From Eubacteriales bacterium (GTDB taxonomy: Bacteria > Bacillota > Clostridia > Oscillospirales > CAG-272), in contig JAZRRX010000039.1 in assembly GCA_045651165.1 (NCBI GenBank), positions 111,448 to 175,447 on the forward strand: a DNA stretch of 64,000 bases. Reading direction: 5' to 3'. The notes below the pieces were generated by a model that made no database searches, had not been told where the DNA came from, and was given only the letters and a program-made list of their open reading frames with translations. Positions 28,781 through 44,203 of this stretch are shown here, piece by piece. Both the position numbers and the translations under genes were made by a program. Position 1 is the first letter of the stretch, and every line of letters begins with the position of its first letter.

Positions 28781-31117
28781 TCAAAATACCAACCCATTAA
28801 ATGTAGCGGGGTTATCGAGTGGCTCCAATGTTTCCACCACCTCACCGTTTTCGGTGATTTCCAGTGTTACACGATGTCTCATTTTTTCCTTGACATACTG
28901 TTCCATATATGAACCACGTGGTGAGCGAATAACAATACCGTTATAACAAGAAAGGCAATAAACATCCTCCACATTTATGACGCTTGCGGGAATCAGGACA
29001 GTGCCATTCACATCAGAAAGTGCAAAGACACCAAGCGTTTCGGTACCGTCGGGCACGGCATAGAAATCCTCCAAAATTTTGGCATGTACAAGCTTTTTAC
29101 CGTCTTTCGTAAATATAGAACCATCCACCGACTTATAATTAGGGTTGTCGGTGGACACCTCCGCCTCATAGAACAATCCGCCCCACTTGTACTGAGGTTC
29201 GATATGCGTAACAGAAGAAGGAATACATAGCTTTTCAAAAGATCCGTCAGATAGTTGGAAAGCACTGCCACCGATCGACGATATGCTCTCCGGCAAAACT
29301 CCTTGAATCTCTACCGCACCTGGTGCATAAGTCAAAAGCTCTCCTTGGCGACTGCACAGATGTCCTTCTATTGCCACGTATTTGGGATTTCTCTCCGAAA
29401 CAACAAATTCTTTAAGGTCTGGTGCCGGACCGTCAAAGCCCTCGCACCAAAGACGTGTCATAGTTGATGGAATTACAACCTTTTTGCATTGTGATAAATT
29501 AATACGATCATTGGTAGTGGTTACACCTTCCGGAAAAACAAGCTCATCACCGAACTCGCCTAACTGCCTAACGTTTCCATGCTCATCAACTATCATAATG
29601 CTCTGCAAATCTATAAGATATTTATCGGCATTCTCATCTAGTATAGGAGTTTTCATAAAATCTTCAATCTCATACTCCTTGATAACATGAAATTTCAAAC
29701 CGTGCTTATCACAGTATTGTTGAGCAGCACTTCCCTCTGCTCCTCCAATCACTATGTCATTATCGATATACGGACACTCAAAACCGCAAATCTGCACAAA
29801 GAATGGATATGTGTCATCAGGGAATCCCTCAACGCCTGCGGCAAAATAGATATGACGCAGGTCTCGGGCATTAATAAATGCACTTTCATTGATTGATACA
29901 CAATTATTTCCCACCTTCAAGCACTGCAAATTTTTGGCATACTCAAAAGCGCATTCCCCAACATTACACACGCGTTCGTCAACTTCGTAATAAAGCTGTG
30001 GTTTTGCAGGACAGTATTTTACGAGTGTTTTATAATTACTTGTAAAAAGCACATCATCCTCTGCAACATACCATTTGTTGTTTTCGTCAACCGTGATACT
30101 TTCCAAATTCGGGCACCCGTAACTATAGGAGTGATTTTTACCACAAAACGCCTCGGGGGTGATTTTTTGCACATCAGCACCGATGTGTACGCTTTTCAGA
30201 TTTGGATAGTCATCAAAAGCGAGATCCGAAAGCACGGTAATACTGTCGCCAATAATGATTTTCTCGATTTTTTCTCGACGGTATCGATTAATTTTTCGAT
30301 TGGCATTTTTGATAACAATATCCGTCATCGTATTCTGAACGCACGGAGCAAGAATCATAAGCACTCCGTCAACAAATCTAATACTATAACCCTTGTCGCT
30401 CTCATCAATGAAAAATTCAGTTTCACATTCAATCTGTTCACGTAATTTTCTGCGAAGCTCCTCTTCGCTTGCAGCATAGAAGCTCTCCACCTCGTCTTCA
30501 TCAACTTCAACAAAGTCTATGTTTCGTTCGTTACAGTATTCCTCAATAACAGAACCTTTCGCACCACCGACAGTGCTAATGGGATAATAGCGTCCGCCGT
30601 CATCACCACCTACATCAAATATCTCACCTTCAAGCTCGGTGACTGTTGGTGGGATATAGATTGTTCTCAGATTAAAATATCCGTCACTCATCAAACCACG
30701 ATTTCCGATTTTAGTAATGTTTCTGCCAATATCAATGCGAAGAAGCTCTGGCGCATCTGCAAAGCAATCCGCGGCAATTTCAGTTGCGAAATCAGGAATC
30801 GTATAACGCGACTCCCCTTCCTTATTGTACTTCACGACTATCTTTCTATCCTTGGAAAACATTACTCCGTCTTCGATAACATAATTTTCACTTATATATT
30901 TCTTTCTATATTCCTCAATGGTTGATTTATTGGCAGGCGAATACTCGTCTTCAAACTTCAATGGTTCCGCTTCCCAATTACAATGAGGGCAAACAAACCA
31001 ATCGTCAAAGGTCTCGTCGCCGCAAATAGGACAGCTGATAATATCTCTACCCAAATCAAGGCACATTTGATATTCGTCCTTGCCGATTATTTCAATTAAT
31101 TTTTTCTTTGTTGTCAT
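28781..31117 (-). CDS. Cytoplasmic zinc-ribbon plus BspA-type leucine-rich-repeat protein
   Basis: N-terminal CPICGDETFDDWFVCPHCNWEAEP. Recurrent LRR-type units (IPPTVTELEGEIF, IPSTMTRLW, IPSSVTHIE, IPASVINVE). No signal peptide or TM helix seen. Confidence 0.65.
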   Translation of the reverse strand: MTTKKKLIEIIGKDEYQMCLDLGRDIISCPICGDETFDDWFVCPHCNWEAEPLKFEDEYSPANKSTIEEYRKKYISENYVIEDGVMFSKDRKIVVKYNKEGESRYTIPDFATEIAADCFADAPELLRIDIGRNITKIGNRGLMSDGYFNLRTIYIPPTVTELEGEIFDVGGDDGGRYYPISTVGGAKGSVIEEYCNERNIDFVEVDEDEVESFYAASEEELRRKLREQIECETEFFIDESDKGYSIRFVDGVLMILAPCVQNTMTDIVIKNANRKINRYRREKIEKIIIGDSITVLSDLAFDDYPNLKSVHIGADVQKITPEAFCGKNHSYSYGCPNLESITVDENNKWYVAEDDVLFTSNYKTLVKYCPAKPQLYYEVDERVCNVGECAFEYAKNLQCLKVGNNCVSINESAFINARDLRHIYFAAGVEGFPDDTYPFFVQICGFECPYIDNDIVIGGAEGSAAQQYCDKHGLKFHVIKEYEIEDFMKTPILDENADKYLIDLQSIMIVDEHGNVRQLGEFGDELVFPEGVTTTNDRINLSQCKKVVIPSTMTRLWCEGFDGPAPDLKEFVVSERNPKYVAIEGHLCSRQGELLTYAPGAVEIQGVLPESISSIGGSAFQLSDGSFEKLCIPSSVTHIEPQYKWGGLFYEAEVSTDNPNYKSVDGSIFTKDGKKLVHAKILEDFYAVPDGTETLGVFALSDVNGTVLIPASVINVEDVYCLSCYNGIVIRSPRGSYMEQYVKEKMRHRVTLEITENGEVVETLEPLDNPATFNGLVF

Positions 31118-31256
31118 TTTTTATTCCTTTCTGCCATTATGGCATTAAAATTTGTATTATATTATTGAGTTTTCTTTTTTTGTGGGGCCATGGTACTATA
31201 CTATAGCCCGTCACAATACATATTTTTGATTTTTGTTTTATCCTTTTATTAATTTA

Positions 31257-31598
31257 TCAACTGCATTTAAGTGTCATTATAGTGTTTTCTGGGAAATTAT
31301 TCTCAATCACAAATTCTGCCAATGTATCGAAATATTCAAAAATCTCTTCGGGCACATCGGTTTCCATAATAATCTCAAAGTTATAGTAATTGTCTCCAAC
31401 CTCCCATACACTAACAAGAAACTTATCGGGACCTTTTACGAGGTCGTTTTCAAAGTAGTATCTTATCATTCCACCCGTATCATCAAGACAAGTAGGATAT
31501 ATCCCGTCTAGCGGAACGATTCGATACATCGCTCCTTCGCATTTAGTCTCCACCTTAATATTAGTCCACACAAAATGTTTTGTCTTACTTATTTTCAT
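31257..31598 (-). CDS. Hypothetical protein
   Basis: 113-aa ORF co-directional with its neighbours; no recognisable domain. Confidence 0.45.
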   Translation of the reverse strand: MKISKTKHFVWTNIKVETKCEGAMYRIVPLDGIYPTCLDDTGGMIRYYFENDLVKGPDKFLVSVWEVGDNYYNFEIIMETDVPEEIFEYFDTLAEFVIENNFPENTIMTLKCS

Positions 31599-31687
31599 TT
31601 TATTAATTCTCCTTATTATAAATTAAATAGCGATTTATGATACTAAGCATTTGTTTTGAAATCATGATAGTATTTTACTTTCATATA

Positions 31688-32200
31688 TTAGAAGCTCAAT
31701 CCACCAAATTTTCTAGGGGCACAAGGGCTTGCTATAGGGGGCTGAACTACTTCTTTTTCACATTTTTTTGCCTCATCAGTAGAGTTATCATCCGGCCATT
31801 CTGGAAGATCTTTCTGCTGATTGCGACTTAAGCAAAACTCAACCTTTGCAATCGTACGACCTTTGTATTCAGCGTGTACCACGCGAACCGCACCACGTTT
31901 ATGCCACCAATCAACAAGCGCATCTTGTTCATCTTCTCTGATATCAAACGAATTGAAAAACTCACCAATAAGCTGGTTCGTGCGAGCCGGATTCTCGGGG
32001 TTATACCAAATATAATGTCTAAGTTTGTGAGTGAATCCATTTACATAAAGCTCAATTTCGAGCCCTTTTCTACCATTGCTAGCCATTGTCTCACTTACGA
32101 GATCAATTTGAGCTCTATAATCTCCCTCAGGAAGAAGGTTTGATTTGCCAGTCTGGCTTTCGTTATACTGATTTGAGTTGTAATTCCATGTAAATCCCAT
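31688..32200 (-). CDS. DUF669-like phage-associated protein
   Basis: LLPEGDYRAQI, NGRKGLEIELYV and KRGAVRVVHAEYKGRTIAKVEF follow the DUF669 pattern as remembered. AAAGGAG RBS. Confidence 0.5.
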   Translation of the reverse strand: MGFTWNYNSNQYNESQTGKSNLLPEGDYRAQIDLVSETMASNGRKGLEIELYVNGFTHKLRHYIWYNPENPARTNQLIGEFFNSFDIREDEQDALVDWWHKRGAVRVVHAEYKGRTIAKVEFCLSRNQQKDLPEWPDDNSTDEAKKCEKEVVQPPIASPCAPRKFGGLSF

Positions 32201-32317
32201 GATAATTTCTCCTTTAATATATTTTTGATTTTATTGCTTTTGATAATTGAATTAAATATAATCAGCAGATCTTTTTATTTCAAATTACTTTTTTGTTAAT
32301 GTTAATTTAATAAGTAG

Positions 32318-32731
32318 TTATTTTTGTTTAATATAATTAACTTCCTTCCACTTTGGAAGTTTCTTTTGATATTCTTTATCAAGACAGAAAGCGATCTTAG
32401 CAAACATTTTACCCTGATATTGTGTATGTGTTATTCGAATCGCTCCCGTTTTGCGCTTCCACGAATCTAGGTTATCCTGCTCACTATAGTTAATATCAAA
32501 CGAGTTATATAATGCTTTGAGTCGATTGTTAGTGTGCTGCTCGTTACTTTCATCCAAACAAATGTGGTAAGTAAGTTTTCTAGCGGTGCCGCTAACATCA
32601 AGGACAATTTCAAGTAGATCATTGTTGTCACTATCGACTGTAATAGATGCTCGGTTAATTCGAACTCTGTAGTCCCCCTCTCTCATTATAGGGAAATTGG
32701 TATCAGTAATTAAATTTAAATAGTGATTCAT
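32318..32731 (-). CDS. DUF669-like protein, tandem paralog
   Basis: Shares EGDYR.RI, FNSFDI..EQD, GA.R..H..Y.G...AK..FCL and LP.W blocks with the 31688-32200 product. Start set to the ATG at 32731 behind GAGGT. Confidence 0.5.
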   Translation of the reverse strand: MNHYLNLITDTNFPIMREGDYRVRINRASITVDSDNNDLLEIVLDVSGTARKLTYHICLDESNEQHTNNRLKALYNSFDINYSEQDNLDSWKRKTGAIRITHTQYQGKMFAKIAFCLDKEYQKKLPKWKEVNYIKQK

Positions 32732-32749
32732 AGTTATAGACCTCATTTC

Positions 32750-32888
32750 ATTAGTAAAGTAATAGAGTAAATAATATAGGGGGTTATAAGATAGGTTTGG
32801 ATATGATATAGTATGGGTATAGGTAGGGAGAGAGGAGAGATGGGTAATAAAGATTGTATGAAATATAAATATTTAATAAAAAATGTAG
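32750..32888. other. 139-nt tract completely lacking C on the plus strand
   Basis: Direct reading: the last C is at 32749 and the next at 32889, with only three C up to 32971. G-rich purine runs such as GGTAGGGAGAGAGGAGAGATGGG. Confidence 0.9.
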
Positions 32889-33084
32889 CGTAAATAGTAA
32901 TTTGGGGATAAGTGTGGTTAGTGGATTTGCTAGTTTACGGTGATTTTTTAGTAAATAATATATTTATTTTTCAAAGAGCAAAAAAATGGGCAATTTTTAT
33001 ATATAGGGACCTCCACTGGACCACATATATATTATACAAAATGGGAGGTTTACTTTTATAGTCGCGTTGCGACCATTTTTATAA

Positions 33085-33120
33085 TAAAAAAAGCAAGCGA
33101 TGAACCTCGCTTGCTTTTTT
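33085..33120. terminator. Bidirectional terminator
   Basis: A-run, stem AGCAAGCGA/TCGCTTGCT, T-run; 13 nt downstream of the minus-strand stop at 33133. Confidence 0.8.
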
Positions 33121-33132
33121 CTGCTATTCTAT

Positions 33133-33909
33133 TTAAAATAATGGTTCGCACCCATTTCTTTCTAAAGTGTCATTTATTTCATGTATAATAAATCTTCTCG
33201 AGCTATTACATTTCAAAATAGCCTCTATAACCACCTCTTCTTTTTTATTGCGTCGAAAATCATATCCAATACTCTCTAGTAATCTTTTTGCATCTTCATA
33301 ATCAAGTTCCAACGCAAAACACAATCTAAATAAAATCCTACGGGAAACTGTTCCATATTTTTCTCTTCTTATTGAATTAAAAGTATCAATAGATACTCCA
33401 TAAGTTGTGGTTAAAGAATCTTTAAATTGCTTTTTTAAAGCACCCCTGGTCTTTTTTCCATCTTTATACTTGTCATAATATTTTTCAAGCAGTTCATCCA
33501 AAACATTATAAAATGATGTTTTTACTTCTATGTTTTCTATGGCAATATAGTTTGACATTGTTGTATCTTGGCCTACTAAAAAGCACTTATCACCATCAAC
33601 TATTTCATCCGAGCGATAAGTATCTTTTACATATTGGTCAATCCAAGCGAATATTTGTACTCGAGTATTAATCAAATCCATTACAAAATATTCTTGATTT
33701 GTTGCATAAGGAGTGGAGAAATTAGCCATCAAATCATCATAGTTACGAGTTCTCTTTTTTATGGCTACTTTGCTTCTATCCGCAAATCCAGCTTTTTTCA
33801 ACAAGTCTTCTATTATTTCAATATCCATATCACTGCGAAAAGCCCTGAGGTTCTCCATACAGTATTTGCAAACAATATAATCTTCTTCTATTGTCCATCT
33901 TTTTGCCAT
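33133..33909 (-). CDS. Putative DNA-binding protein (SANT/Myb-like N-terminus, XRE-like HTH C-terminus)
   Basis: N-terminal KRWTIEEDYIV (W-T-x-E-E-D) and C-terminal FNSIRREKYGTVSRRILFRLCFALELDYEDAKRLLESIGY. Confidence 0.4.
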   Translation of the reverse strand: MAKRWTIEEDYIVCKYCMENLRAFRSDMDIEIIEDLLKKAGFADRSKVAIKKRTRNYDDLMANFSTPYATNQEYFVMDLINTRVQIFAWIDQYVKDTYRSDEIVDGDKCFLVGQDTTMSNYIAIENIEVKTSFYNVLDELLEKYYDKYKDGKKTRGALKKQFKDSLTTTYGVSIDTFNSIRREKYGTVSRRILFRLCFALELDYEDAKRLLESIGYDFRRNKKEEVVIEAILKCNSSRRFIIHEINDTLERNGCEPLF

Positions 33910-33929
33910 AACATGAGCCCCCTAATAAA

Positions 33930-34029
33930 TTTGGTACAAAGATAGTATATCATACTTTTGGTACTAATTCAATATACAAATATCTTAAAATCAGTACCAA
34001 AAGAAACATTTGTGAACAAAGTACTAATT
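33930..34029. promoter_or_regulatory. Cluster of TTTGGTAC / GTACTAATT repeats upstream of the serine recombinase (res-like or operator sites)
   Basis: TTTGGTAC at 33930-33937 and 33957-33964 (the latter followed by TAATT), inverted GTACCAAA at 33994-34001, and AAAGTACTAATT at 34018-34029. Confidence 0.45.
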
Positions 34030-34126
34030 TTTATCAAAAGGGGCTCCCTTTTAGCTCAAAACACGACATAATATAGGTATAGAAAGAAACTTTAGTTTGA
34101 TTTAATACTGAAAGGAAGCTTATATT

Positions 34127-34825
34127 ATGATCTACGCTTATTGTCGTGTTTCAACTACACATCAAAGAATTGCTAGGCAGATTACCAACATTACTGCCGT
34201 GTATCCAAACGCCACCATTATTCGTGAGTTCTACACCGGAACGAAACAGGACCGCCCTAATTGGAATAAGCTCATGCATATAATTAAAAAGGAAGACACT
34301 ATCGTTTTTGATAGCGTCTCCCGTATGAGCCGTAATGCCGAAGAAGGCTTCAAAGATTACAAGATGCTATATGAATTAGGAGTACATCTCATTTTTCTCA
34401 ACGAACCATTAATAAACACTTCCGTCTTCGACTCAACACGTAATAACCTATTGAGTGTCAATGTCGAAACTGGTAATGAGGCGGTAGATAATTTCTTTAA
34501 AGGAAATATTGAGTTAATCAATAATTTCCTAATGGCACTCGCTGAAGAGCAAATCAAGACCGCATTTGACCAGGCAGAAAAGGAAGTCACAGACCTTCAC
34601 TCAAGAATATCTCAAGGTATCCGAGAAGCTAAGAAAAATGGAACACAGATAGGCCTAGCCAAAGGCACTTCCCTCACAACCAAGAAATCGCTTGATTGCA
34701 TCGCCATCATCAAAAAGCACTCAAAAGATTTCGGTGGTACTCTCGATGACCCTGATGTAATGAAACTCTGCGGTTGCTCCAGAAATTCTTATTATAAATA
34801 TAAAAAGGAAGCAAAGTCAAATTAA
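34127..34825 (+). CDS. Small serine recombinase (resolvase/invertase family)
   Basis: MIYAYCRVSTTHQ (catalytic Ser), VFDSVSRMSRN, C-terminal HTH-like tail; 232 aa. Confidence 0.85.
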   Translation: MIYAYCRVSTTHQRIARQITNITAVYPNATIIREFYTGTKQDRPNWNKLMHIIKKEDTIVFDSVSRMSRNAEEGFKDYKMLYELGVHLIFLNEPLINTSVFDSTRNNLLSVNVETGNEAVDNFFKGNIELINNFLMALAEEQIKTAFDQAEKEVTDLHSRISQGIREAKKNGTQIGLAKGTSLTTKKSLDCIAIIKKHSKDFGGTLDDPDVMKLCGCSRNSYYKYKKEAKSN

Positions 34826-34835: not shown

Positions 34836-35030
34836 ATGGACAAGGTTAAAATTGGAGATACCATTAAAATCATCAAAATGGAAGGCGAACCTCACTACAC
34901 CTACCGAGAGGGTGTAGTTACTCACATCGATGACGCAGGTCAAATACACGGAACCTGGGGTGGTTGTGCTATCATTCCATGGGTTGATACTTATATAGTC
35001 TTAAACAATAACATCAAAAAAAGAACTTGA
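34836..35030 (+). CDS. Small DUF4314-like protein
   Basis: IGDTIKIIKMEGEPHYTYREGVVTHIDDAGQIHGTWGG pattern; 64 aa; 10 nt after the recombinase gene. Confidence 0.45.
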   Translation: MDKVKIGDTIKIIKMEGEPHYTYREGVVTHIDDAGQIHGTWGGCAIIPWVDTYIVLNNNIKKRT

Positions 35031-35054
35031 CCATTTGAGTCAAGTTCTTTTTTT
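35015..35054. terminator. Bidirectional terminator
   Basis: A-run, stem AAGAACTTGAC/GTCAAGTTCTT, T-run; between convergent genes. Confidence 0.8.
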
Positions 35055-35060
35055 ACCTTA

Positions 35061-35486
35061 TTAAATTAATATGCCATTACAATGATCCACCTCGTGTTGG
35101 ATGATCTGCGCTGTCCAGCCGGTGTAGGTTTTGATGCGCATTTGCATTTCAAGAGTTTGATATCGCACCTTGATGGTATTATATCGCTTGCACTTGCGTG
35201 GGCCACCGAGTAGCGACAAACAGCCCTCTTCGGTATCGTACGCGCCGTCCTTCTTGATGATTTCGGGATTCAGCATCACGGTGTACGTAGGAGCTCGTCC
35301 GCTCTCGTCGAGAAAGGCGATAATGCGCTTGCGCACACCGATCATATTCGCAGCCATACCGACACAGCTTTCTCTGTGCGCTATCAGCGTGTCGAGCAAG
35401 TCGTGTGCCACCTGCAAATCTTCTTTCGTTGCAACCTCCGACTTTCCTGCAAGAAATATCGGGTCGTGCATTAATTCCTTAATCAT
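35061..35486 (-). CDS. def: Peptide deformylase (short, divergent motif 1)
   Basis: GMAANMIG (variant of GxGxAAxQ), EGCLS, HEVDHCNG; 141 aa. Visibly more GC-rich than its neighbours. Confidence 0.85.
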   Translation of the reverse strand: MIKELMHDPIFLAGKSEVATKEDLQVAHDLLDTLIAHRESCVGMAANMIGVRKRIIAFLDESGRAPTYTVMLNPEIIKKDGAYDTEEGCLSLLGGPRKCKRYNTIKVRYQTLEMQMRIKTYTGWTAQIIQHEVDHCNGILI

Positions 35487-35520: not shown

Positions 35521-36198
35521 TCAATTATTAGAATTAGCGATCAAATATTTTTTATTATCGCAATAGTCTTCCATACCTTGAATAATACCCTGTAGAAATC
35601 TAATGATTATGTCTTTAATTGACTCCAAATCAGACAAAGTAAGATCTCTCGCGCACTGACTAAAGCTTTCATCCCCATGTGCCAAAGAATTTCGCTTCTT
35701 TCTTACTTCTTCAAGCTTGTTATCGTCATCAACAACAGTATATCTAATTCTATGATCATCACAAATATGTTTGATTCGCCCTGCGTTTAAATTGCCGTTT
35801 ATGTTGAGCATTCCTTTTTCAAGAATAAAAGGGGCGCTAGTCGTAATATCATCAACGATGTCTTTTACTCTATTGGTATATGTTTTTAATTCTGTTGAAG
35901 ATGAATAAACTTGCTTAACCTTAGCATCTCTCCATATAGTTTGAAGCTCTTGAACCATATTTTTATATGTACAAGAATCATTTTTTATGGATTCATAAAT
36001 TTCCAACATCCCAGTCGATACAGTAGATTCAACCAAATTATATAACATCAAAATAAAATTGGATTTCATTATTTTGAATAGTCGTGCGTTATCTATTGTA
36101 TGTATTGAAGAATTTTCTTTATCTATTTCTACTAAAACAGAATAATAAAATTCTATCTCACCTTTTCTTTCTTCAAAAGTTTCCTTAACGTTAATCAT
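35521..36198 (-). CDS. HEPN-domain nuclease-like protein (MAE_28990/MAE_18760-type)
   Basis: RKKRNSLAHGDESF (R-x4-H HEPN motif); 8-nt overlap with the upstream DUF262 gene. Confidence 0.65.
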   Translation of the reverse strand: MINVKETFEERKGEIEFYYSVLVEIDKENSSIHTIDNARLFKIMKSNFILMLYNLVESTVSTGMLEIYESIKNDSCTYKNMVQELQTIWRDAKVKQVYSSSTELKTYTNRVKDIVDDITTSAPFILEKGMLNINGNLNAGRIKHICDDHRIRYTVVDDDNKLEEVRKKRNSLAHGDESFSQCARDLTLSDLESIKDIIIRFLQGIIQGMEDYCDNKKYLIANSNN

Positions 36199-37234
36199 TT
36201 AACTTACCCAAAAGTATATCCCTTACATACTCAATTCTACCAATTAGTTTGTTTTGATTATTACTTGCATCCGATGTTGTCAAATGCTTAAATTCTTCAG
36301 AATTTATCCAATCCACATTATCAACTGTAAGGTCCGGTTGCTCTCGCAACGCCAAAGCGACGCCAACAGATATTGCTTCAAACCTTACACGTGGGGTTGT
36401 CGAAGCATTTTGTGTTTTGGCAAATCCAAACTCGAAATTTGCATCAACAAACGCTAGCATACGAGCAAATTCTATTTGATATTGTTCTTCATTGAATGTT
36501 TCCATATTATCAATCAAGAAGTCATTCAAAAATCCATTCACCTTATGAACGAAATTTTGGTAGTTGTTTAAATAAGCAAAGAAACGAAGAATAAGTTCAA
36601 AACGTTCTTGTCTCAAATTCTTTCCAGTAGATACAGGACAAAGTCTAATGAAATCAGCATTTTCTGTACAGTTCTCAATGAAGGTAGTTAATGGACCAGG
36701 ATAGGATCCACGGCGCACCTCAGAATCAGTAGCCTTCATTCCCGAAGTGTTGATTCTATTAAACAAATCCTGTCTAACATCAGAAGTTGTCTTTTCATCC
36801 AACACAATAACTCTAAATGCTTTGTTATTGAACTTTCTTTGTTGGGCTTCGGTCAAATCCTTAAACCTAAATCCGTTAAGATATGTCAGCTTTTCTAGAT
36901 TAGAAAGCCTCAATTTATTACTAACGAATTCAACAAGAGTTTGCATTCGTTGTGCACCATCGACTATCTCAAGGCGCCCATCATCACACGCTGCAAAGAA
37001 CATAAAAGGGATAGGCAATCCCAACAAAACAGATTCAATAAACATCGACTTATTTTTAGGACGCCATACGAATTTTCTTTGATATCCTGGAATGAAAAAG
37101 TCTTGCTTGTTAAATTTATCAACCAAATGTTCGATAGTATAATCTTTTGTATCGTATTCAATCTGTTTTTGAAATTCTTTAATTTGAAGCTCGGCTCTTT
37201 CTATTAATTCAGATGTTATTTTAATTCTCGGCAT
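36191..37234 (-). CDS. DUF262 (ParB/GmrSD N-terminal-like) protein
   Basis: PGYQRKFVW and IVDGAQRMQTL (DGQQR-like). Start set to the ATG at 37234 behind GGAGG, overlapping the methyltransferase stop. Confidence 0.75.
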   Translation of the reverse strand: MPRIKITSELIERAELQIKEFQKQIEYDTKDYTIEHLVDKFNKQDFFIPGYQRKFVWRPKNKSMFIESVLLGLPIPFMFFAACDDGRLEIVDGAQRMQTLVEFVSNKLRLSNLEKLTYLNGFRFKDLTEAQQRKFNNKAFRVIVLDEKTTSDVRQDLFNRINTSGMKATDSEVRRGSYPGPLTTFIENCTENADFIRLCPVSTGKNLRQERFELILRFFAYLNNYQNFVHKVNGFLNDFLIDNMETFNEEQYQIEFARMLAFVDANFEFGFAKTQNASTTPRVRFEAISVGVALALREQPDLTVDNVDWINSEEFKHLTTSDASNNQNKLIGRIEYVRDILLGKLND

Positions 37235-38276
37235 TATTGTTAACCTCCACAATATGATTTAGAATTGATTCTCCAATGATTTCGCCTAAACGCACAGGAA
37301 CTGCGTTTCCGATATGTCTTGCAATATCACTAAAAACAAAATTAGTTTCCGGATTAATGAAATTATAATCTGCAGGAAAAGTCTGCAATAATGCTCCTTC
37401 TCTCAAAGACAGAGCTCGATCTTGCTCCGGGTGTCCATATCTGCCCGTGCCATAATTATAAAACTGTGTTGTTATAGTTGGGCCAATCTGTTCCCAAGTC
37501 ATTCTACCATAAACAGAGCAATATGTTTTGCCGCTCTCCTTCTTATGGCATTCGCAGCGTAAATCCTCTGGCCAATCTCGCCAAGATCCTCCTGGCCTAG
37601 AGTGCTGAATTCTTTTTAGATTTAGTGCGTTCAACCCAGCGGCTCTATGCATAGGATCATTTGGATCTGTTTCTCCTGCAGCTATTTGAGGTAGATTTTC
37701 AATAAAATCTCTTACATGAATATCTGCGCTATCGTGCGTAGGTTCAATGATTCTTATCTCACCCAACAACGATCCAACCAAAACGAAACGACGTCGTGTT
37801 TGTGGAATTCCGTAATCAGGACAATAAATAACTTTTGCATCAATTTGATATCCTAAACGTTCTAAAATAGCAAGAAATTCTTGATATACACCTGTTTCTT
37901 TTATTTGAGGTACATTTTCCATCGCAATTACAGATGGATTTGTCTCTTCAATCAATCTTCCAAATTCTAACAACAAATCATACTTGTCGTCCTGTTCATT
38001 TGCATCTCTTAGTTTAAATCTCATCTGTGAGAACGGTTGGCAAGGAGCGCATCCAACTAATATTCTAGTTGCATTTTCGTCATATAGTGCGGCTATTTCC
38101 TCACCTGTAACTTCACGAATATTTTTCAAATGATAATCCACATTATTATTGTGTTCGTAAGTGAATTGGCATGTTGCATCAATGTCAAATCCTGCTATCA
38201 CATTGAGGCCTGCATCAAGTAAACCACGTGTCAATCCTCCAACGCCACAAAATAAATCCACAACTTGTATTGGCAT
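37221..38276 (-). CDS. DNA (cytosine-5)-methyltransferase
   Basis: DLFCGVGG, APCQPFS, ENVPQ, QTRRRF, GNAVPV. Confidence 0.9.
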   Translation of the reverse strand: MPIQVVDLFCGVGGLTRGLLDAGLNVIAGFDIDATCQFTYEHNNNVDYHLKNIREVTGEEIAALYDENATRILVGCAPCQPFSQMRFKLRDANEQDDKYDLLLEFGRLIEETNPSVIAMENVPQIKETGVYQEFLAILERLGYQIDAKVIYCPDYGIPQTRRRFVLVGSLLGEIRIIEPTHDSADIHVRDFIENLPQIAAGETDPNDPMHRAAGLNALNLKRIQHSRPGGSWRDWPEDLRCECHKKESGKTYCSVYGRMTWEQIGPTITTQFYNYGTGRYGHPEQDRALSLREGALLQTFPADYNFINPETNFVFSDIARHIGNAVPVRLGEIIGESILNHIVEVNNNAEN

Positions 38277-38277: not shown

Positions 38278-38670
38278 TTATTTCCCTCTTAATAATATTA
38301 TTGTTTGATAAAATACAGTTATTGCCTCCGAGGCAAACTCTGCAGTTCCCGCGCCATACTTGTCGATGTTTTTCTTGAATCGCTCATCAGCTACGTACAT
38401 CTTTCCAAGCCCTACGAGAATCTCATCTGTGCAAGTGTAGTAGTTCTCCGTGATATGTGACTGAAGCATGGCAACAAGTGCCTGCGCTTCATCAGAATCG
38501 GCACTCACTCCACTATCCTTGCACACAGCAAACTCGGCAAATATGGCCATCAAATCCTCATTTGCCTCAGCCCACTTCTCTTTTGTGTAATTCTTTGTCT
38601 TTTGCTCGTACTCACGGTAGGGTGAGGTGTTGCCATAGCGCTCACGAGCTTCCGTCTCGTAGTTTTTCAT
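38278..38670 (-). CDS. TipAS antibiotic-recognition domain protein (no MerR HTH)
   Basis: ARERYGNTSPYREY ... GLGKMYVADERFKKNIDKYGAGTAEFASEAI. Start set to the ATG at 38670, since the longer track ORF overlaps the upstream gene. Visibly GC-rich. Confidence 0.75.
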   Translation of the reverse strand: MKNYETEARERYGNTSPYREYEQKTKNYTKEKWAEANEDLMAIFAEFAVCKDSGVSADSDEAQALVAMLQSHITENYYTCTDEILVGLGKMYVADERFKKNIDKYGAGTAEFASEAITVFYQTIILLRGK

Positions 38671-38677
38671 ATCTTTC

Positions 38678-39361
38678 TTATTTAGATCTATCTTTAGTAA
38701 CAAAAACAAACATAACATCAATTACACTTTGAAGATCATCTATAAATATCTCAATATTGTTACGTTTTCTACTACTCATTAATCCGTAAACACTACGTAT
38801 TATCCAAATAATAGCATATATCAAAAACACAATGGCAATCAACCCCAAAACATATCCAATAATATCTTCAATGTTAGTCTGACTTGAAATAAACGTAGTA
38901 ATTATAGCAAGCATTAATGGAATAATCAAAGTTTGCATCCATTTGTCAATTTTATCACTTTGCTGCCTTTTGAGTGCATCTTGCTTTTCCAAATCGTGCG
39001 CTAGGCGTGATTTGATTAATTCTATATCTTCTTGTGTAGTTATAGAGTATTCGGACAACCAATTGTATAAATCGTGAGCCGATGTTCTAAAATCATCATA
39101 ATGTTCGCGACTATACTTAATTTTCCACTTCTCTTGAACCCAATAAAGTATAAAAGCAACAGTTGCTTCTATAAAAGTAAGTATATAAAACCACTCGTTA
39201 ATACCAATAGCAAAAATATTAATAATACTTGCTACAAAGCATAAAACAGCCAATATTAGTAGCACAATAATATACCACGGTATTTTCTTGATAGCATTAG
39301 TAAATGATCCACTATGGTCTTTTTGATATTTCAAATAACTATTTAGCAAATGATACTCCAC
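38678..39361 (-). CDS. Four-TM membrane protein, uncharacterised
   Basis: Two N-terminal and two C-terminal hydrophobic helices flanking a charged helical segment (SRLAHDLEKQDALKRQQSDKIDKW). Confidence 0.55.
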   Translation of the reverse strand: MEYHLLNSYLKYQKDHSGSFTNAIKKIPWYIIVLLILAVLCFVASIINIFAIGINEWFYILTFIEATVAFILYWVQEKWKIKYSREHYDDFRTSAHDLYNWLSEYSITTQEDIELIKSRLAHDLEKQDALKRQQSDKIDKWMQTLIIPLMLAIITTFISSQTNIEDIIGYVLGLIAIVFLIYAIIWIIRSVYGLMSSRKRNNIEIFIDDLQSVIDVMFVFVTKDRSK

Positions 39362-39397: not shown

Positions 39398-40336
39398 TTA
39401 TACGATAGTTTCCTTTATTTTTTCAGCAATCCTTCTAATTACAGGCACAACAACACTATTCCCACATTGCTTGTATGCACTTGCCATAGGTATCTTAGGG
39501 AAACGATATTCTTTAGGAAAACCTTGTAAGGCCAAGCACTCATATGGCGTAATTTTTCTGATACCGCAATCATCTCTAATTATTGGAACCCTATCAGGAA
39601 AAGTTCCCATATTGGCAGTCAGTGTTGGGCATACGTAATGCGCCTTTCTTGATACGCCCGAATCGTAAATCTTATATAGCGCATCTTTATTGTCAATAAT
39701 TCTTTGCAAATCCTCATAATAAACACTACTATCTGTGTAATAATAGCTCTTATCGTGTTTGGCGTTTCTTACCAATATGTCATTCAACTTGGTTGTTAAC
39801 TTAATCTTTTCAGGAAACTCAAATCTATCACACTGGTCGTTTTCAAGAAATGCCACAATGTAGATGCGTGTACGATGCTGAGGTATATTACTATACTCTA
39901 TCGCATCCATGACTCTATATTTGAACGTATAACCATAAGGAACAAGTGCATTATATATGGTTAAGAATGTCTTTCCATCGTCATGTTCTAATAGATTTGC
40001 AACATTTTCAAGGAAGATGACCGGCGGACGCTTGTCCTTAACAATTCGCGCAATCTCAAAGAACAAGTTTCCGCGCGGATCATCGAATCCTTTTTGCTTG
40101 CCTGCTATAGAGAACGGTTGGCATGGAAAGCCGGCAACAAGCACGTCAAAATCGGGGATATCCTCACTTTTGACACTTCTAATATCGCGTTCAACTAAGT
40201 GCTCTCCGCCGAAATTATGACGATATGTTCTTGCGGCATCACGATCAAATTCGTTTGCCCAAACAATTTCAAATCCTGCTTGCTGGAAGGCTAAATCTAT
40301 TCCCCCAATGCCGCTAAATAGGCTACATACTCTCAT
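39398..40336 (-). CDS. DNA (cytosine-5)-methyltransferase
   Basis: SLFSGIGG, FPCQPFS, ENVANL, QHRTRIY, GNSVVVPV. Confidence 0.9.
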   Translation of the reverse strand: MRVCSLFSGIGGIDLAFQQAGFEIVWANEFDRDAARTYRHNFGGEHLVERDIRSVKSEDIPDFDVLVAGFPCQPFSIAGKQKGFDDPRGNLFFEIARIVKDKRPPVIFLENVANLLEHDDGKTFLTIYNALVPYGYTFKYRVMDAIEYSNIPQHRTRIYIVAFLENDQCDRFEFPEKIKLTTKLNDILVRNAKHDKSYYYTDSSVYYEDLQRIIDNKDALYKIYDSGVSRKAHYVCPTLTANMGTFPDRVPIIRDDCGIRKITPYECLALQGFPKEYRFPKIPMASAYKQCGNSVVVPVIRRIAEKIKETIV

Positions 40337-41604
40337 TTCTCTACAGCTTTTCCTATATCTTCAATAAGTTTCGTAATATCCTCAGTGCAATTTCCTTGCG
40401 ACCAAACAGAAATCAAGTGTTTAGTATCAATTAAAAATGCACATATACGTGTATGAGATAACGCATCGTTTCTCCAATTAGCTTCTGAATATCCGATATA
40501 TTCAAGGTCGGAATCATATCCAAATGGATTATTTGCTCTATTATAAGGCATTACAAATGCATTGTACACATATGTTATATTCTCTTTCTTTTGCAAATTA
40601 CAAATTATATTATCACCATACGTAATTTGCTTTTGAATAGAGGTTGTTGTCGGCAAATCGCTTTCATTACCCGTTGTTCCGAAACGATAAAACTTAGCAT
40701 CAAGAACATATGCTACCTTCTCATCTGTGCTAGAATCGCTAGAAATCGGCTCTAACCTAATGGTGTCAGGTCTCAAAGAAGAAGCATCTTTAGGAGCGTA
40801 TGCGTTTTTCTTCAAGTACCATTTGGCATTAGGATTATACTTAGTTATGTCTGTAACATTACTGAAAACATAATCCACCATACGCTCGTATACATAATGA
40901 TACTTATCCACACCATACACAATCTCTCTCGTTCTATCAGAGTCATCAACGCCTGTAAGAACTCGCAACATGTGATTTAAACGAATCTTTTTTACATCAT
41001 CAAAGGTACGCGTGAGTTCTGTTTTAATAGCTCGGATATACTTTTTCAGTACAGAGTCCACAGTTCTTGCAACAAAGACACTCTTTTCGTTTAATCCGAA
41101 CAACCACCCGATTTTACGAACAGAATCGAACACACACCACTTATGTGCTTCGGTTATAATGTCGTCGCAATCGTTGCGCACTTCAACAATAACGTTATTA
41201 TAAATAATATTACCATTAGAGATGATCGGCTGCGTTTCTAATGTCTTTTTCCAATTTACCTTTCCCTTACCGTTGGTACGGTAGATTTTTTCACTATTTC
41301 GATAGTATCCATTAGAAAGATAATCTCTAATAATCCACAGATATGACCTTATGGCGAACTGATCGTTTTGAGCAACACCATTGTCGTTGTTGAAGCTGAT
41401 ATTAGCTTTACTTTTGGCCAACGAAATTGTTCGGATGATATTTACTACATCATGTCTAAAAGCCTTTTTATCTTCTTGTTTTGCTAAATGATATGATTCA
41501 GGGTAATGAAAATGAATTTCTCCGTTTCTTATGCGAAGACCGACAAAAGAGTTTTGTTCTTCATTGGTAACCGAATGAAGAATTATCTTCTTATCATCAT
41601 TCAT
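40333..41604 (-). CDS. LlaJI-type / McrC-like restriction endonuclease subunit
   Basis: Overlaps the McrB-like gene by 8 nt. AYVLDAKFYRFG ((D/E)xK-type core); size and position match an LlaJI R2 / McrC partner. Start set to the ATG at 41604 behind GAGGG. Confidence 0.65.
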   Translation of the reverse strand: MNDDKKIILHSVTNEEQNSFVGLRIRNGEIHFHYPESYHLAKQEDKKAFRHDVVNIIRTISLAKSKANISFNNDNGVAQNDQFAIRSYLWIIRDYLSNGYYRNSEKIYRTNGKGKVNWKKTLETQPIISNGNIIYNNVIVEVRNDCDDIITEAHKWCVFDSVRKIGWLFGLNEKSVFVARTVDSVLKKYIRAIKTELTRTFDDVKKIRLNHMLRVLTGVDDSDRTREIVYGVDKYHYVYERMVDYVFSNVTDITKYNPNAKWYLKKNAYAPKDASSLRPDTIRLEPISSDSSTDEKVAYVLDAKFYRFGTTGNESDLPTTTSIQKQITYGDNIICNLQKKENITYVYNAFVMPYNRANNPFGYDSDLEYIGYSEANWRNDALSHTRICAFLIDTKHLISVWSQGNCTEDITKLIEDIGKAVEK

Positions 41605-44203
41605 TGTTTCCCTCTTCTTCTGCACTTACGGCAGCTCTAGCCTCAAATATACCTGTTTTGAAAACGCCTACTCCACCTGTTTTATATGCGTCAATAAGGT
41701 TTTCTAAAGTGTCATACGGATTGAAGAAGATACCGTGATCAAGCTTAGCTACATCGCTCCACAGGTAGTCAAATACCTTATATGCAAACTTTTCAGCGTC
41801 ATTACTTGCCAAAAGATTTTCTTTTACAAAGAACGCTCCAATCTGCTTATCCTCATTGACCTGAAGATCTTCCAAATGCCTTGCAATACATTTATTGATA
41901 CTTGTAACAAACTCTTCCCAAGTGTACTGTATCATTCCCGGAACAGGCATAGCTTTAAATTTGCAATTTTTAAAGGAATTCTTAATCTTTTCCTTATCCC
42001 AACGACGAACAAATGCGGTATCTAACGTATAGACATTTTGGTCACTTGTGTTCATAGTTGCAAAGATATCCATATTACCAGGAATTTTAATTTCGCTGAA
42101 AGTATAACGCTTCTTTTCCCCATCAACTATAAACTCATAAGCATTGAGATAATCTATCATGCTGACATTGACAATCCCATATTCACTGATGCTGTTTTCA
42201 TCTCTATCCAAAAGTTGGAATATGTCTCCGAAAATGGCAGGAGCATTTCCTCTGTTGATTTCTTCAATAACAAGAGCAACCTTTTTACTAGGATTACTGA
42301 TTGCCTGAATCAATGCAAGAGTGAACGGACCGGGGTTGAATATGTACTCAACAGTATCTTTCTCTCCGTTTCTTCCTTTAACCACCTTAGGAAGAATCTG
42401 ACCAACAAAATCAGTATTAGAATAATCCTGATAGAAAGTGGTTCGAATTACTCTTTCATTACTATATGGGTCAACGTATTCCTTGGTAACTTTATCCTTA
42501 CCTAAAATATCGTGCTCAATGTGATACGATTTTCCACAACCAGGTGTACCAAAGAATATCTTGTTGATTCCTGATCCAACGGTAGTCTTATAGTCAAAAT
42601 CAGTTGCCGGAATTACCTGTTCGGGCTCATGGAAATGAATACCATACTCATTATCTCTTACAGACTTATAGATGCTAATTCCCTTATTAACTTCTACATG
42701 ATAAGAATTTTGTAATCTAGAAGCTTTAACTATTTGAGTTGCGGTATATCCTTTACTAATGATTATCGCGGCATACTTGAAGCCAAACATATGAATAGCA
42801 GTTGTCTTGTTATCTGCAGCATCATACATATCAGAAAGGATTTCTGCCAACTCTTCAACGGTATAATCTTTTCCGATATCATCCGCCTCAAGTTCTATAT
42901 CTTCTTCAATTAACAAAGATTCATCTTTGACGTATGTGCCATTCAATAAATCGTTAACTGCCGATTTATAATCGTTGAGTCTGAAAACAGACATAGCAGC
43001 ACCCAAAGAGTTTTGGAAGACTTCCGACAAATCGCTCTTGCGAATATCCTTTTTAAGCCACTCAACATCTCTAACGTTAACGTAATCCGGATCTTGGTTT
43101 GCGTTTTGTGCATTATCAAAGTAATAATCTGAAGCTATGCGACCAATATGACAAGTGTCACCATTAGAGAATACAACGTAGTCGCCAATTTGCATTTCCT
43201 TAACAAAACGCCAAATCTGACCCAAATCCTGAGCCTTTTTTCTTACTTTTTCGTTAGGATAGGCAGATTCATATCTTGAATCAAGATCTTCCCTCGTGGT
43301 AATGTCGGATATGTCCCCTATCTTAGACCAACCAATACAGATGTGAGGCTTAGTATCAGATAAAGCATCATTCTGAAGTTTGATATGCATACCGTAAAGA
43401 TCATGAACAAAAACATCATCGCACAACGAATTATTGGAATCACCAGTCGAATTTTCAATATCCATATAATTCTCATATGAAGATCTATTAGTCACATAAT
43501 TTTGATTAGGATCTGGTGACCAAAAACGAGTGTATGTCAATATATCAAACAATACCGCTTTATTATCTGTGGTCAGATTATCATGCTCTATGTATAGCTC
43601 TTGACGTTCATTTTCAGATATACATCCCGAATACAAAAGGAGCTTTACCATTTCACGAATTTGACGGTCTTCATGTTTCCAAATTCTTTTATCAGGATCT
43701 ATCTCTACTGTTGTAGGTAGGGTTCCTGTTTTTCTGTATTCTATAATCTGCTGTGCCAACTCTACGATATTAGGAGTTTTACTTTTTGCAACTACACTGT
43801 TATAGAAAAAGAAATGCAGTATTTCATCACGTGTCAAATGAGCAGCACCCGGGTATAACATATGCATGTTGTAAAGAACTTGTAAAACTAATCTCATGGG
43901 TGCAATGGTAATACCATCATTAAATGCATCCAACATAGACTCTTGGGTGCGTGGATTGGGAAATTGGAATTTTTTAATAAAATTCAACACAACTTTTCTT
44001 ACATTCCCATTCTGACACTCCTTGGCACAATTGCTTGTTGATGTTAGATTGAAATAGAAGCCAAGCGTCTTCATATTGTTATTTTCACTTTTATCTTCAC
44101 TGGCAGATGGAACTGTATCTGTAACAAAGCATGTGCCAGCTTTTGTTAAGGCAGACTGCAAGCTAGATATTCTCAAATCATTCGTAAATAAATAGTGATA
44201 CAT
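41597..44203 (-). CDS. McrB-like AAA+ GTPase restriction subunit with long N-terminal extension
   Basis: FFGTPGCGKSY (Walker A), LVIEEINRGNAPAIFGDIFQLLDR, ATMNTSDQNVYTLDTAFVRRW; about 520 aa precede the NTPase core. Confidence 0.85.
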   Translation of the reverse strand: MYHYLFTNDLRISSLQSALTKAGTCFVTDTVPSASEDKSENNNMKTLGFYFNLTSTSNCAKECQNGNVRKVVLNFIKKFQFPNPRTQESMLDAFNDGITIAPMRLVLQVLYNMHMLYPGAAHLTRDEILHFFFYNSVVAKSKTPNIVELAQQIIEYRKTGTLPTTVEIDPDKRIWKHEDRQIREMVKLLLYSGCISENERQELYIEHDNLTTDNKAVLFDILTYTRFWSPDPNQNYVTNRSSYENYMDIENSTGDSNNSLCDDVFVHDLYGMHIKLQNDALSDTKPHICIGWSKIGDISDITTREDLDSRYESAYPNEKVRKKAQDLGQIWRFVKEMQIGDYVVFSNGDTCHIGRIASDYYFDNAQNANQDPDYVNVRDVEWLKKDIRKSDLSEVFQNSLGAAMSVFRLNDYKSAVNDLLNGTYVKDESLLIEEDIELEADDIGKDYTVEELAEILSDMYDAADNKTTAIHMFGFKYAAIIISKGYTATQIVKASRLQNSYHVEVNKGISIYKSVRDNEYGIHFHEPEQVIPATDFDYKTTVGSGINKIFFGTPGCGKSYHIEHDILGKDKVTKEYVDPYSNERVIRTTFYQDYSNTDFVGQILPKVVKGRNGEKDTVEYIFNPGPFTLALIQAISNPSKKVALVIEEINRGNAPAIFGDIFQLLDRDENSISEYGIVNVSMIDYLNAYEFIVDGEKKRYTFSEIKIPGNMDIFATMNTSDQNVYTLDTAFVRRWDKEKIKNSFKNCKFKAMPVPGMIQYTWEEFVTSINKCIARHLEDLQVNEDKQIGAFFVKENLLASNDAEKFAYKVFDYLWSDVAKLDHGIFFNPYDTLENLIDAYKTGGVGVFKTGIFEARAAVSAEEEGNNE

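What the first reader, a model, noticed from the sequence alone, without database searches (positions are those of the whole stretch)
35521..38276. Dcm methyltransferase + DUF262 + HEPN triad with overlapping reading frames
The three genes overlap (37221-37234 and 36191-36198), which implies translational coupling. DUF262 (QR and DGQQR-like motifs) is the NTP-binding/ParB-like half of GmrSD-type type IV enzymes, but here the usual DUF1524 HNH-type nuclease is absent. A separate MAE_28990-type HEPN protein (RNSLAH) follows instead. A modification-dependent sensor coupled to an RNase-type effector, next to a modification enzyme, is an unusual mix of self-marking and type IV logic. As far as I know it has not been characterised experimentally.
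Basis: partly seen in the sequence, partly recalled or inferred. Interest (0 to 1): 0.62.

Follow-up and report, generated by a model that had tools for sequence, protein, structure and literature searches.

The report
Methylase, DNA sensor, RNase defence cassette
This is a real and widely conserved three-gene mobile cassette (a dedicated cytosine methylase, a DUF262 DNA-sensing NTPase and a HEPN RNase) that almost certainly defends bacteria against phages; the gene combination was noted by computation in 2013 and a methylase-less relative is a proven defence, but nobody has shown how it works.

Summary
Three minus-strand genes, Dcm (37221-38276), DUF262 (36191-37234) and a MAE_28990 HEPN (35521-36198), overlap by 14 and 8 nt, and all catalytic motifs are intact. 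The triad is not a chance neighbourhood. I found 27 non-redundant complete copies in the same order with junctions of -35 to +8 nt in unrelated flanks. Distant copies sit on proteobacterial and actinobacterial plasmids, in Moraxella prophages and in the E. coli P2 prophage defence hotspot, with the Dcm first, last or convergent. The Dcm belongs to one dedicated clade, and its target-recognition region is its most conserved part, so there is probably one fixed methylation motif. The DUF262 protein is NsnA-like (the Menshen sensor) and has no DUF1524, NsnB or NsnC partner. The novelty claim is overstated. Anantharaman et al. [quoted passage not shown] My best model is that 5mC marks self DNA, the sensor reads it, and the HEPN RNase aborts infection. 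Which methylation state triggers the sensor is unresolved. Verdict: a new member of a known but mechanistically uncharacterised kind, of moderate interest.

The parts
37221..38276 (-). C5 cytosine DNA methyltransferase (351 aa), first gene of the triad. It belongs to a dedicated clade with a conserved target-recognition region. The catalytic Cys is C79 in the PCQ motif.
   Evidence: PF00145 1e-56 and TIGR00675. It is 47-55% identical to the Dcm of every other triad but only 24-28% to the three other Dcm genes of this window. Residues 226-289 of the TRD are the most conserved segment.
36191..37234 (-). NsnA-like DUF262 (ParB-fold NTPase) plus C-terminal all-helical ParBDB-like domain (347 aa), the putative DNA/modification sensor. 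It has no nuclease domain.
   Evidence: PF03235 4e-29. PADLOC NsnA 1e-61 over the full length and PD-T4-2_A 8e-36. QRxxxW, DGxQR and FxRxN are invariant in orthologues. AF2 model pLDDT 74, with best PDB matches BrxU, SspE and the ParB CTPase. ATG at 37234 with a GGAGG RBS.
35521..36198 (-). MAE_28990-family HEPN protein (225 aa), the putative RNase effector, with R169-N-S-L-A-H174.
   Evidence: PF18737 1.6e-20 and PF18735 1.7e-7. R169, N170, L172 and H174 are invariant in 15 orthologues, and R[NQ]xLAHG is present in all intact loci. There are 1136 50%-identity clusters at E<=1e-3.
37221..37234 (-). 14-nt overlap of the Dcm stop with the DUF262 start (translational coupling).
   Evidence: Sequence read. 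The orthologous junctions are -35 to +6 nt.
36191..36198 (-). 8-nt overlap (ATGATTAA) of the DUF262 stop with the HEPN start.
   Evidence: Sequence read. The orthologous junctions are -37 to +8 nt.

Best explanation
This is a self-contained, horizontally mobile three-gene defence/addiction cassette. Shown here: the domain identities, the intact motifs, the operon conservation, the co-inheritance of all three genes, and the location in mobile elements and defence hotspots. Inferred: (1) the dedicated Dcm writes 5-methylcytosine at one fixed short motif on resident DNA; (2) the NsnA-like DUF262/ParBDB protein is an NTP-dependent DNA-binding sensor that reads the methylation state of that motif; (3) when it meets DNA in the non-self state, most likely the unmethylated motif on incoming phage or plasmid DNA, NTP-driven conformational change activates the partner HEPN RNase; (4) the RNase cleaves cellular and/or phage RNA and stops translation, giving abortive infection or growth arrest, and incidentally stabilises the cassette by post-segregational toxicity. 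In short, it is an R-M-like epigenetic self-mark wired to an RNA-targeting effector instead of a DNase. I put about 0.8 on 'three-part defence cassette with these roles' and about 0.45 on the stated trigger polarity. The confidence given is for the whole statement.
For: The triad is conserved in the same order in 27 non-redundant loci from Bacillota, Desulfovibrio, Bacteroides, Synergistaceae and Fusobacteriaceae, while the flanks differ (HpaII R-M, MmeI, integrases). Distant relatives, with HEPN only 21-25% identical, keep all three genes in other arrangements. DUF262-HEPN-Dcm(-Vsr) occurs in Rhizobium, Roseomonas and Rhodococcus plasmids. A convergent Dcm occurs in Klebsiella, Rhodococcus and Roseomonas plasmids, in Moraxella prophages, and in E. 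coli P2-like prophages at the gpQ-gpA hotspot. Rousset 2022 define that site as a defence hotspot. The DUF262 and HEPN trees agree with the arrangement type. The Dcm is one clade, and its TRD C-half is 61-73% identical across phyla against 36-49% for the catalytic core. Vsr lies directly beside the triad Dcm in two unrelated loci, so real DNA 5mC is made. Catalytic motifs of all three proteins are intact in all complete loci. Precedents: PD-T4-2 (DUF262+HEPN) defends against T4. DUF262 is the sensing NTPase in GmrSD, BrxU and SspE. Li et al. 2025 raise the idea that methylase-linked ParB-DUF262 may target non-modified genomes. PADLOC also matches a REBASE-derived 'Type II REase' DUF262 model.
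Against: No experiment exists for this form. All characterised DUF262 sensors respond to modified, not unmodified, DNA (GmrSD, BrxU, SspE, and Dazbog). Intact DUF262+HEPN pairs exist without an adjacent Dcm: L035 in Peptococcaceae, IncF plasmids of E. coli and Salmonella, small Klebsiella and Pedobacter plasmids, and PD-T4-2 itself. One MAG (L009) has the Dcm catalytic loop deleted but an intact sensor and effector. The pair is therefore not always lethal without the linked methylase. The methylation motif, RNase activity and protein-protein contact are all unverified. The HEPN structure model was poor (pLDDT 57).
Confidence: 0.5

Rival explanations
1. Type IV polarity. The DUF262 sensor is triggered by foreign modified DNA (hmC, glucosyl-hmC, or 5mC in another context), as in GmrSD, BrxU and Dazbog, and fires the HEPN RNase. 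The linked Dcm has an auxiliary role, for example shielding the element from other restriction systems or masking self sites from the sensor.
For: Every characterised DUF262 sensor reads modified DNA. Dazbog is an abortive DUF262 system triggered by a phage C5-methylase. PD-T4-2 was selected on T4, whose DNA is glucosyl-hmC, and needs no linked methylase. Dcm-less intact pairs exist.
Against: It does not explain why one dedicated Dcm clade with a frozen TRD is co-inherited with the pair across phyla and through three gene arrangements. A 5mC-sensing trigger next to a 5mC writer would be self-toxic.
Confidence: 0.22
2. Ssp-like licensing. The sensor must bind the host's own 5mC mark to become competent, as SspE needs phosphorothioate. 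Without the Dcm the pair is inert rather than toxic, and the actual phage trigger is something else.
For: SspE's DUF262 NTPase is stimulated by the self modification and its defence depends on it. This would reconcile the tight Dcm linkage with occasional tolerated Dcm loss (L009, L035).
Against: There is no direct evidence. Dcm-less pairs such as PD-T4-2 are active, although E. coli supplies its own Dcm methylation (my own knowledge, and the motif identity is untested).
Confidence: 0.15
3. The DUF262 (ParB-like) protein is itself the DNA nickase or nuclease of a Type II-like R-M pair with the Dcm, and HEPN is an accessory second-line RNase.
For: Anantharaman 2013 call the partner a 'ParB nuclease'. 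A REBASE-derived PADLOC 'REase_II' model matches the DUF262 domain at 4e-16.
Against: There is no recognisable nuclease domain. In studied systems DUF262 is an NTPase sensor and cleavage is done by DUF1524. HEPN is as strictly conserved as the other two genes.
Confidence: 0.08
4. There is no functional triad. A solitary methylase (or the second methylase of the neighbouring LlaJI-like system) merely sits next to a PD-T4-2-like two-gene system.
For: The window holds four Dcm genes within 9.3 kb and an adjacent LlaJI-type system. Some pairs lack a Dcm.
Against: The LlaJI-like unit is complete by itself (M1, M2, R1, R2), and its R genes occur in none of the other 40+ loci. The triad Dcm is a specific clade, 47-55% identical between triads against 24-28% to the window's other Dcm genes, and it overlaps the DUF262 gene in nearly all loci.
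Confidence: 0.04

Closest known systems
MAE_28990 HEPN / ParB(DUF262) / DNA methylase operons (Anantharaman, Makarova, Burroughs, Koonin & Aravind 2013, Biol Direct 8:15, Table 1)
   Same: It has the same three components and the same HEPN family (PF18737) with a conserved Rx4-6H motif. The window locus is a straightforward member.
   Different: The 2013 description is a one-line computational observation. It gives no mechanism, no experiment, and no note of the dedicated Dcm clade, the frozen TRD or the prophage-hotspot location.
PD-T4-2 (Vassallo et al. 2022; E. coli ECOR65)
   Same: It is a two-gene DUF262 + small HEPN system. The paper's HHpred gives PF18735 97.8% and PF18737 96.9% for the HEPN. 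It is experimentally protective against T4, both cloned and in the native strain. The window DUF262 matches the PD-T4-2_A model at 8e-36.
   Different: It has no methylase. The whole system is only about 1.54 kb. The window HEPN does not match the PADLOC PD-T4-2_B model even at E=10, and the window DUF262 scores much better against NsnA.
Menshen (NsnABC; Millman 2022; Li et al. 2025)
   Same: The sensor module is the same. The window DUF262+ParBDB protein matches the NsnA model over its full length (1e-61). Menshen loci are also often next to methylases.
   Different: The NsnB ABC-ATPase transducer and the NsnC inPIN-nuclease effector are absent. A HEPN protein directly follows the sensor instead.
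GmrSD / BrxU / SspE (DUF262-DUF1524 type IV and PT-dependent enzymes)
   Same: They share the DUF262 ParB-fold NTPase with QR, DGxQR and FxxxN motifs. The best structural matches of the model are BrxU (7p9k) and SspE (6jiv). SspE, like this system, is paired with a dedicated DNA-modification module.
   Different: There is no DUF1524 His-Me nuclease. The effector is a separate HEPN (RNase-type) protein, and the modification is 5mC rather than phosphorothioate.
Dazbog (DzbAB)
   Same: It is a two-gene DUF262 system acting by abortive infection and linked to cytosine-methylation status.
   Different: Dazbog is triggered by a phage methylase and carries none itself. The window proteins do not match the PADLOC Dazbog models.

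Membership tests
MAE_28990 HEPN-ParB-methylase operon (Anantharaman 2013) | HEPN of the MAE_28990 family with a conserved Rx4-6H motif | tested here: met
   PF18737 at 1.6e-20, 74.6 bits against a cut-off of 26.8. RNSLAH at 169-174 is invariant in orthologues.
MAE_28990 HEPN-ParB-methylase operon (Anantharaman 2013) | ParB-like (DUF262) gene in the same operon | tested here: met
   PF03235 gene overlapping the HEPN start by 8 nt, conserved in all loci.
MAE_28990 HEPN-ParB-methylase operon (Anantharaman 2013) | DNA methylase gene in the same operon | tested here: met
   PF00145 gene overlapping the DUF262 start by 14 nt. It is present in 27 of 28 intact Bacillota-type loci and in 6 of 9 plasmid lineages.
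GmrSD/BrxU type IV restriction enzymes | N-terminal DUF262 NTPase domain with DGxQR | tested here: met
   PF03235 at 4e-29, DGAQR at 92-96, and a Foldseek BrxU match at E 3.6e-4.
GmrSD/BrxU type IV restriction enzymes | C-terminal DUF1524 His-Me/HNH nuclease in the same polypeptide | tested here: not met
   No DUF1524 hit in Pfam. The protein is 347 aa, and residues 180-347 form an all-helical domain aligned to the NsnA C-terminal region.
Menshen (NsnABC) | NsnA: DUF262 + ParBDB protein | tested here: met
   PADLOC NsnA at 1.1e-61, residues 17-340 against model positions 34-378 of 385.
Menshen (NsnABC) | NsnB ABC-type ATPase and NsnC inPIN-nuclease immediately downstream | tested here: not met
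   The downstream gene is a HEPN with no NsnB or NsnC hit. The next gene is a peptide deformylase.
PD-T4-2 | PD-T4-2_A-type DUF262 protein | tested here: met
   PADLOC PD-T4-2_A at 8e-36 (121.8 bits), though weaker than the NsnA match at 207 bits.
PD-T4-2 | PD-T4-2_B-type HEPN protein | tested here: not met
   No PD-T4-2_B hit even at E<=10. The only shared feature is the Pfam families PF18735/PF18737 reported by HHpred in the paper's supplement.
Classical Type II restriction-modification | Methyltransferase plus a DNA endonuclease of a known nuclease fold | tested here: not met
   The methyltransferase is present, but no PD-(D/E)XK, HNH, GIY-YIG or PLD domain was found in either partner.
Dazbog | DzbA/DzbB profile matches | tested here: not met
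   No Dazbog model appears among the PADLOC hits at E<=0.01.
Anti-phage defence system (functional class) | Measured protection against phage | not testable with these tools
   There is only indirect support: location in the P2 gpQ-gpA hotspot, prophage lysogeny modules, plasmids and defence islands, and the PD-T4-2 precedent.

The most novel reading that the evidence does not exclude
The triad is a distinct defence class: a 5mC-based counterpart of Ssp/Dnd in which a universally fixed methylation motif serves as the self mark. An NsnA-like ParB-fold NTPase reads that mark, and the output is RNA cleavage by a HEPN RNase rather than DNA cleavage. That would make it a 'restriction-modification system that restricts with an RNase'. 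A corollary is that methylase-less versions in Enterobacteriaceae (PD-T4-2, IncF plasmid pairs) might rely on the host's chromosomal Dcm mark.
Probability: 0.4. Interest if true: 0.65.

Novelty: new member of a known kind. Interest (0 to 1): 0.4.

Why it matters
If the model holds, this cassette links epigenetic self-marking of DNA to an RNA-directed abortive response, a logic not yet demonstrated for any methylation-based system. It is common in human-gut and rumen Clostridia. One DUF262 orthologue cluster named Gemmiger formicilis is recorded on at least 1000 contigs. It is also carried by E. coli P2-like prophages, Moraxella prophages and plasmids including a Rhizobium Ti plasmid, so it probably affects phage therapy, gene transfer and transformability. 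The frozen methylase specificity makes it an unusually clean system for asking what a DUF262 sensor actually reads. This is also the open question for Menshen, PD-T4-2 and Dazbog.

Tried and rejected
(1) The triad Dcm as the second methylase of the adjacent LlaJI-like system. Rejected: that system has its own M1 and M2, and its R genes are absent from all other triad loci.

(2) Classification as Menshen. Rejected for lack of NsnB and NsnC.

(3) Classification as PD-T4-2. The A component matches, but the B model does not.

(4) Dazbog. No profile match.

(5) A Dnmt2-like RNA methylase protecting tRNA from the HEPN. Rejected as unlikely because Vsr sits beside the triad Dcm in two loci and the enzyme has a DNA-type TRD with DNMT1/HaeIII/HhaI matches.

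(6) Predicting the methylation motif from PDB or PADLOC similarity. No reliable inference was possible.

(7) HEPN structure prediction. The model was too poor (pLDDT 57), so I ran no fold search. The profile search of the PDB gave nothing.

(8) Promoter scan. Hits were no more frequent than in shuffles (44 against 45.9), so I define no promoter.

(9) Identifying the source genome by exact look-up of the HEPN protein. Not on record, so the organism remains unknown, probably a low-GC member of Clostridia judging from its homologues.

(10) The apparent Dcm pseudogene in phage P24B2. It is a 1-nt difference from an otherwise identical E. coli prophage whose Dcm is intact, so it is not evidence for dispensability.

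(11) Literature search for mechanistic work on PD-T4-2 or the triad. None found in the held library.
Full report
**Observation.** The sequence confirms the overlaps:
- The DUF262 gene starts at the ATG at 37234, 9 nt after a GGAGG. That start lies 14 nt inside the end of the Dcm gene, whose stop is at 37223-37221.
- The HEPN ATG at 36198 lies inside ATGATTAA, overlapping the DUF262 stop by 8 nt.

Pfam gives PF00145 (1e-56) for the 351-aa protein and PF03235/GmrSD_N (4e-29) for the 347-aa protein. For the 225-aa protein it gives PF18737/HEPN_MAE_28990 (1.6e-20), plus PF18735 above its cut-off. There is no DUF1524 anywhere. The Dcm has motifs I, IV (PCQ, Cys79), VI, VIII and X.

**Is it a unit?**
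- Homologues of the HEPN protein (276 hits) were traced to their contigs, and a scan of one genome per species returned 33 loci.
- ORF and tblastn analysis found 27 non-redundant complete triads. All are ordered Dcm, DUF262, HEPN on one strand, with junctions from -35 to +8 nt.
- The hosts are mostly Bacillota, but also include Desulfovibrio, Bacteroides, Synergistaceae and Fusobacteriaceae MAGs.
- The flanks are unrelated to each other (an HpaII R-M system, MmeI plus Vsr, integrases, relaxases), so the three genes travel as a module.
- Catalytic motifs of all three proteins are intact in every complete copy.
- The exceptions are informative. Two loci are cut by contig ends. Two are truncated DUF262/HEPN remnants without a Dcm (L034, L036). 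One has a truncated HEPN (L039). One has an intact pair but no adjacent Dcm (L035). One MAG has an internal deletion of the Dcm catalytic loop (L009).

**Distant relatives.** tblastn against plasmids and phages found HEPN relatives at only 21-30% identity, and DUF262 relatives in phages at 42-44% identity, and most of these loci still carry all three genes in other arrangements:
- DUF262-HEPN-Dcm: followed by Vsr on the Rhizobium tumorigenes Ti plasmid, and without Vsr on Roseomonas and Rhodococcus plasmids.
- DUF262-HEPN with a convergent Dcm: on Klebsiella, Rhodococcus and Roseomonas plasmids, and in nine Moraxella catarrhalis prophages next to the CI-type repressor.
- The same convergent arrangement in E. 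coli P2-like prophages between portal gene Q and replication gene A. Rousset et al. 2022 define that site as a defence hotspot.

Neighbour-joining trees of the DUF262 and HEPN proteins agree with each other and with the arrangement type. Three plasmid lineages lack a Dcm: IncF plasmids of E. coli and Salmonella, a small Klebsiella plasmid and a Pedobacter plasmid.

**The methylase is special.**
- The window Dcm is 47-55% identical to the Dcm of every triad, including those whose HEPN is under 25% identical.
- It is only 24-28% identical to the three other C5-methylases encoded within 9 kb in this window.
- Residues 226-289, in the C-terminal half of the target-recognition region, are the most conserved segment. 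They are 61-73% identical across phyla, against 36-49% for the catalytic N-terminal core. This region is normally the most variable part of such enzymes.
- I infer a single, frozen methylation specificity that co-evolves with the sensor.
- Vsr lies directly beside the triad Dcm in two unrelated loci, which indicates genuine DNA 5mC. I could not deduce the motif.

**The neighbours do not explain the Dcm.** Upstream lies a complete LlaJI-type system: two Dcm genes (45421-46491 and 44205-45419), a McrB-like R1 (41597-44203) and R2 (40333-41625). A third Dcm, a membrane protein and a TipAS-only protein follow before the triad. The LlaJI R genes occur in none of the other loci.

**What the parts resemble.**
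- The DUF262 protein matches the PADLOC NsnA (Menshen sensor) model over its full length (1e-61). It matches PD-T4-2_A less well (8e-36).
- Its AF2 model (pLDDT 74) has an N-terminal ParB-like domain and a confident all-helical C-terminal domain. The best PDB matches are BrxU, SspE and ParB CTPase domains.
- The HEPN matches no PADLOC model of PD-T4-2_B, NsnB or NsnC. The same holds for the distant relatives. Current defence finders would therefore probably not call this locus.
- The HEPN family has 1136 clusters at 50% identity.

**Literature.**
- Anantharaman et al. [quoted passage not shown]
- PD-T4-2 is annotated 'DUF262, HEPN', and the paper's HHpred assigns its B protein to PF18735 and PF18737. 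It protects E. coli against T4 both when cloned and in its native strain.
- Menshen shares the sensor but uses an ABC ATPase and inPIN-nuclease effectors. Its authors note frequent methylase neighbours and ask whether ParB-DUF262 might target non-modified genomes.
- Dazbog, another DUF262 pair, is an abortive system triggered by a phage cytosine methylase.
- SspE's DUF262 reads the host's own phosphorothioate mark.
- I found no mechanistic study of PD-T4-2 or of the Dcm-containing form.

**Mechanism.** The best-supported model is an epigenetic self-mark (5mC at one motif) written by the Dcm and read by the NsnA-like NTPase, with the HEPN RNase as an abortive effector.
- The dedicated methylase, its frozen TRD, its retention through three gene orders, and the convergent R-M-like layouts favour a trigger by unmarked DNA.
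- The existence of viable methylase-less pairs, and the precedent that DUF262 sensors read modified DNA, keep type IV polarity and Ssp-like licensing alive.
- All biochemical steps are inferred. Only anatomy, conservation and context are shown.

**Verdict.** The locus is a new member of a computationally known, experimentally uncharacterised kind. Its two-gene core is represented among validated defence systems.

Noticed in passing
window 40333-46491 (-): A complete LlaJI-type restriction system in canonical order: two C5-methylases (45421-46491 and 44205-45419), a McrB-like AAA R1 with an HTH_73 domain (41597-44203) and a LlaJI R2 (40333-41625).
   Followed up: partly
window 39398-40336 (-): A third C5-methylase (312 aa) overlaps the end of LlaJI R2 by 4 nt, making four Dcm genes within 9.3 kb. 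Its 58%-identical orthologue directly precedes the triad in L001, after an unrelated 370-aa gene. Its partner and specificity are unknown.
   Followed up: partly
window 38278-39361 (-): A multi-pass membrane protein (38678-39361) and a TipAS antibiotic-recognition domain protein lacking the MerR HTH (38278-38721) lie between the third Dcm and the triad. The TipAS stop is 1 nt before the triad Dcm ATG, so they may be co-transcribed. Neither gene is found next to any other triad.
   Followed up: partly
window 35015-35486 (-): A short peptide deformylase (141 aa, 35061-35486) starts 34 nt after the HEPN stop. It is followed by the only strong terminator-like hairpin of the region (18-bp stem, 35015-35055). 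It is possibly the last gene of the same transcript and is not conserved at other triads.
   Followed up: partly
window 21480-34825: Mobile-element signatures flank the island: tRNA-Pro (21480-21555), a tyrosine integrase (24860-26035), a serine resolvase (34127-34825) and a BspA-type LRR protein (28781-31117). Further upstream lie Fic (47254-48141) and a trypsin-like peptidase (48351-49193). I did not determine the element boundaries.
   Followed up: no
window 31688-32200 and 32318-32746 (-): Two adjacent paralogous small proteins (170 and 142 aa) share a conserved C-terminal stretch (…GA[VI]R[VI]xHxxYxGxxxAK[VI]xFCL…LPxW). They have no Pfam match.
   Followed up: no
L009 403-1388: In an uncultured Eubacteriales MAG, the triad Dcm has lost residues 69-94 (including the catalytic PCQ loop) and is frameshifted, while DUF262 and HEPN are intact. 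It is either an assembly artefact or a natural case of the pair tolerated without its methylase.
   Followed up: partly
L039 5986-6456; L034 1120-2020; L036 5788-6614: These are decayed copies. L039 has a HEPN truncated before the Rx4H motif, with intact Dcm and DUF262. L034 and L036 are short DUF262/HEPN remnants with no Dcm.
   Followed up: partly
L047 (Peduovirus P24B2, NC_049387.1) ~2290-2370: The phage record's 'DNA methyltransferase' is split by a 1-nt frameshift in the TRD. The otherwise identical prophage in E. coli 181.1 (L055) has an intact 348-aa Dcm, so this is probably a sequencing error in the phage record.
   Followed up: yes
L005 5429-5860; L040 6871-7284: Vsr very-short-patch repair endonuclease genes sit directly next to the triad Dcm in a rumen Clostridia MAG and on the Rhizobium Ti plasmid, consistent with mutagenic 5mC being produced.
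   Followed up: partly
window 37221-38276 (protein): The best solved-structure sequence matches of the triad Dcm are eukaryotic DNMT1 catalytic domains (E about 1e-19, including the 212-338 region), ahead of M.HaeIII and M.HhaI. Its best PADLOC model is a DISARM DrmMII cluster (1e-92).
   Followed up: no
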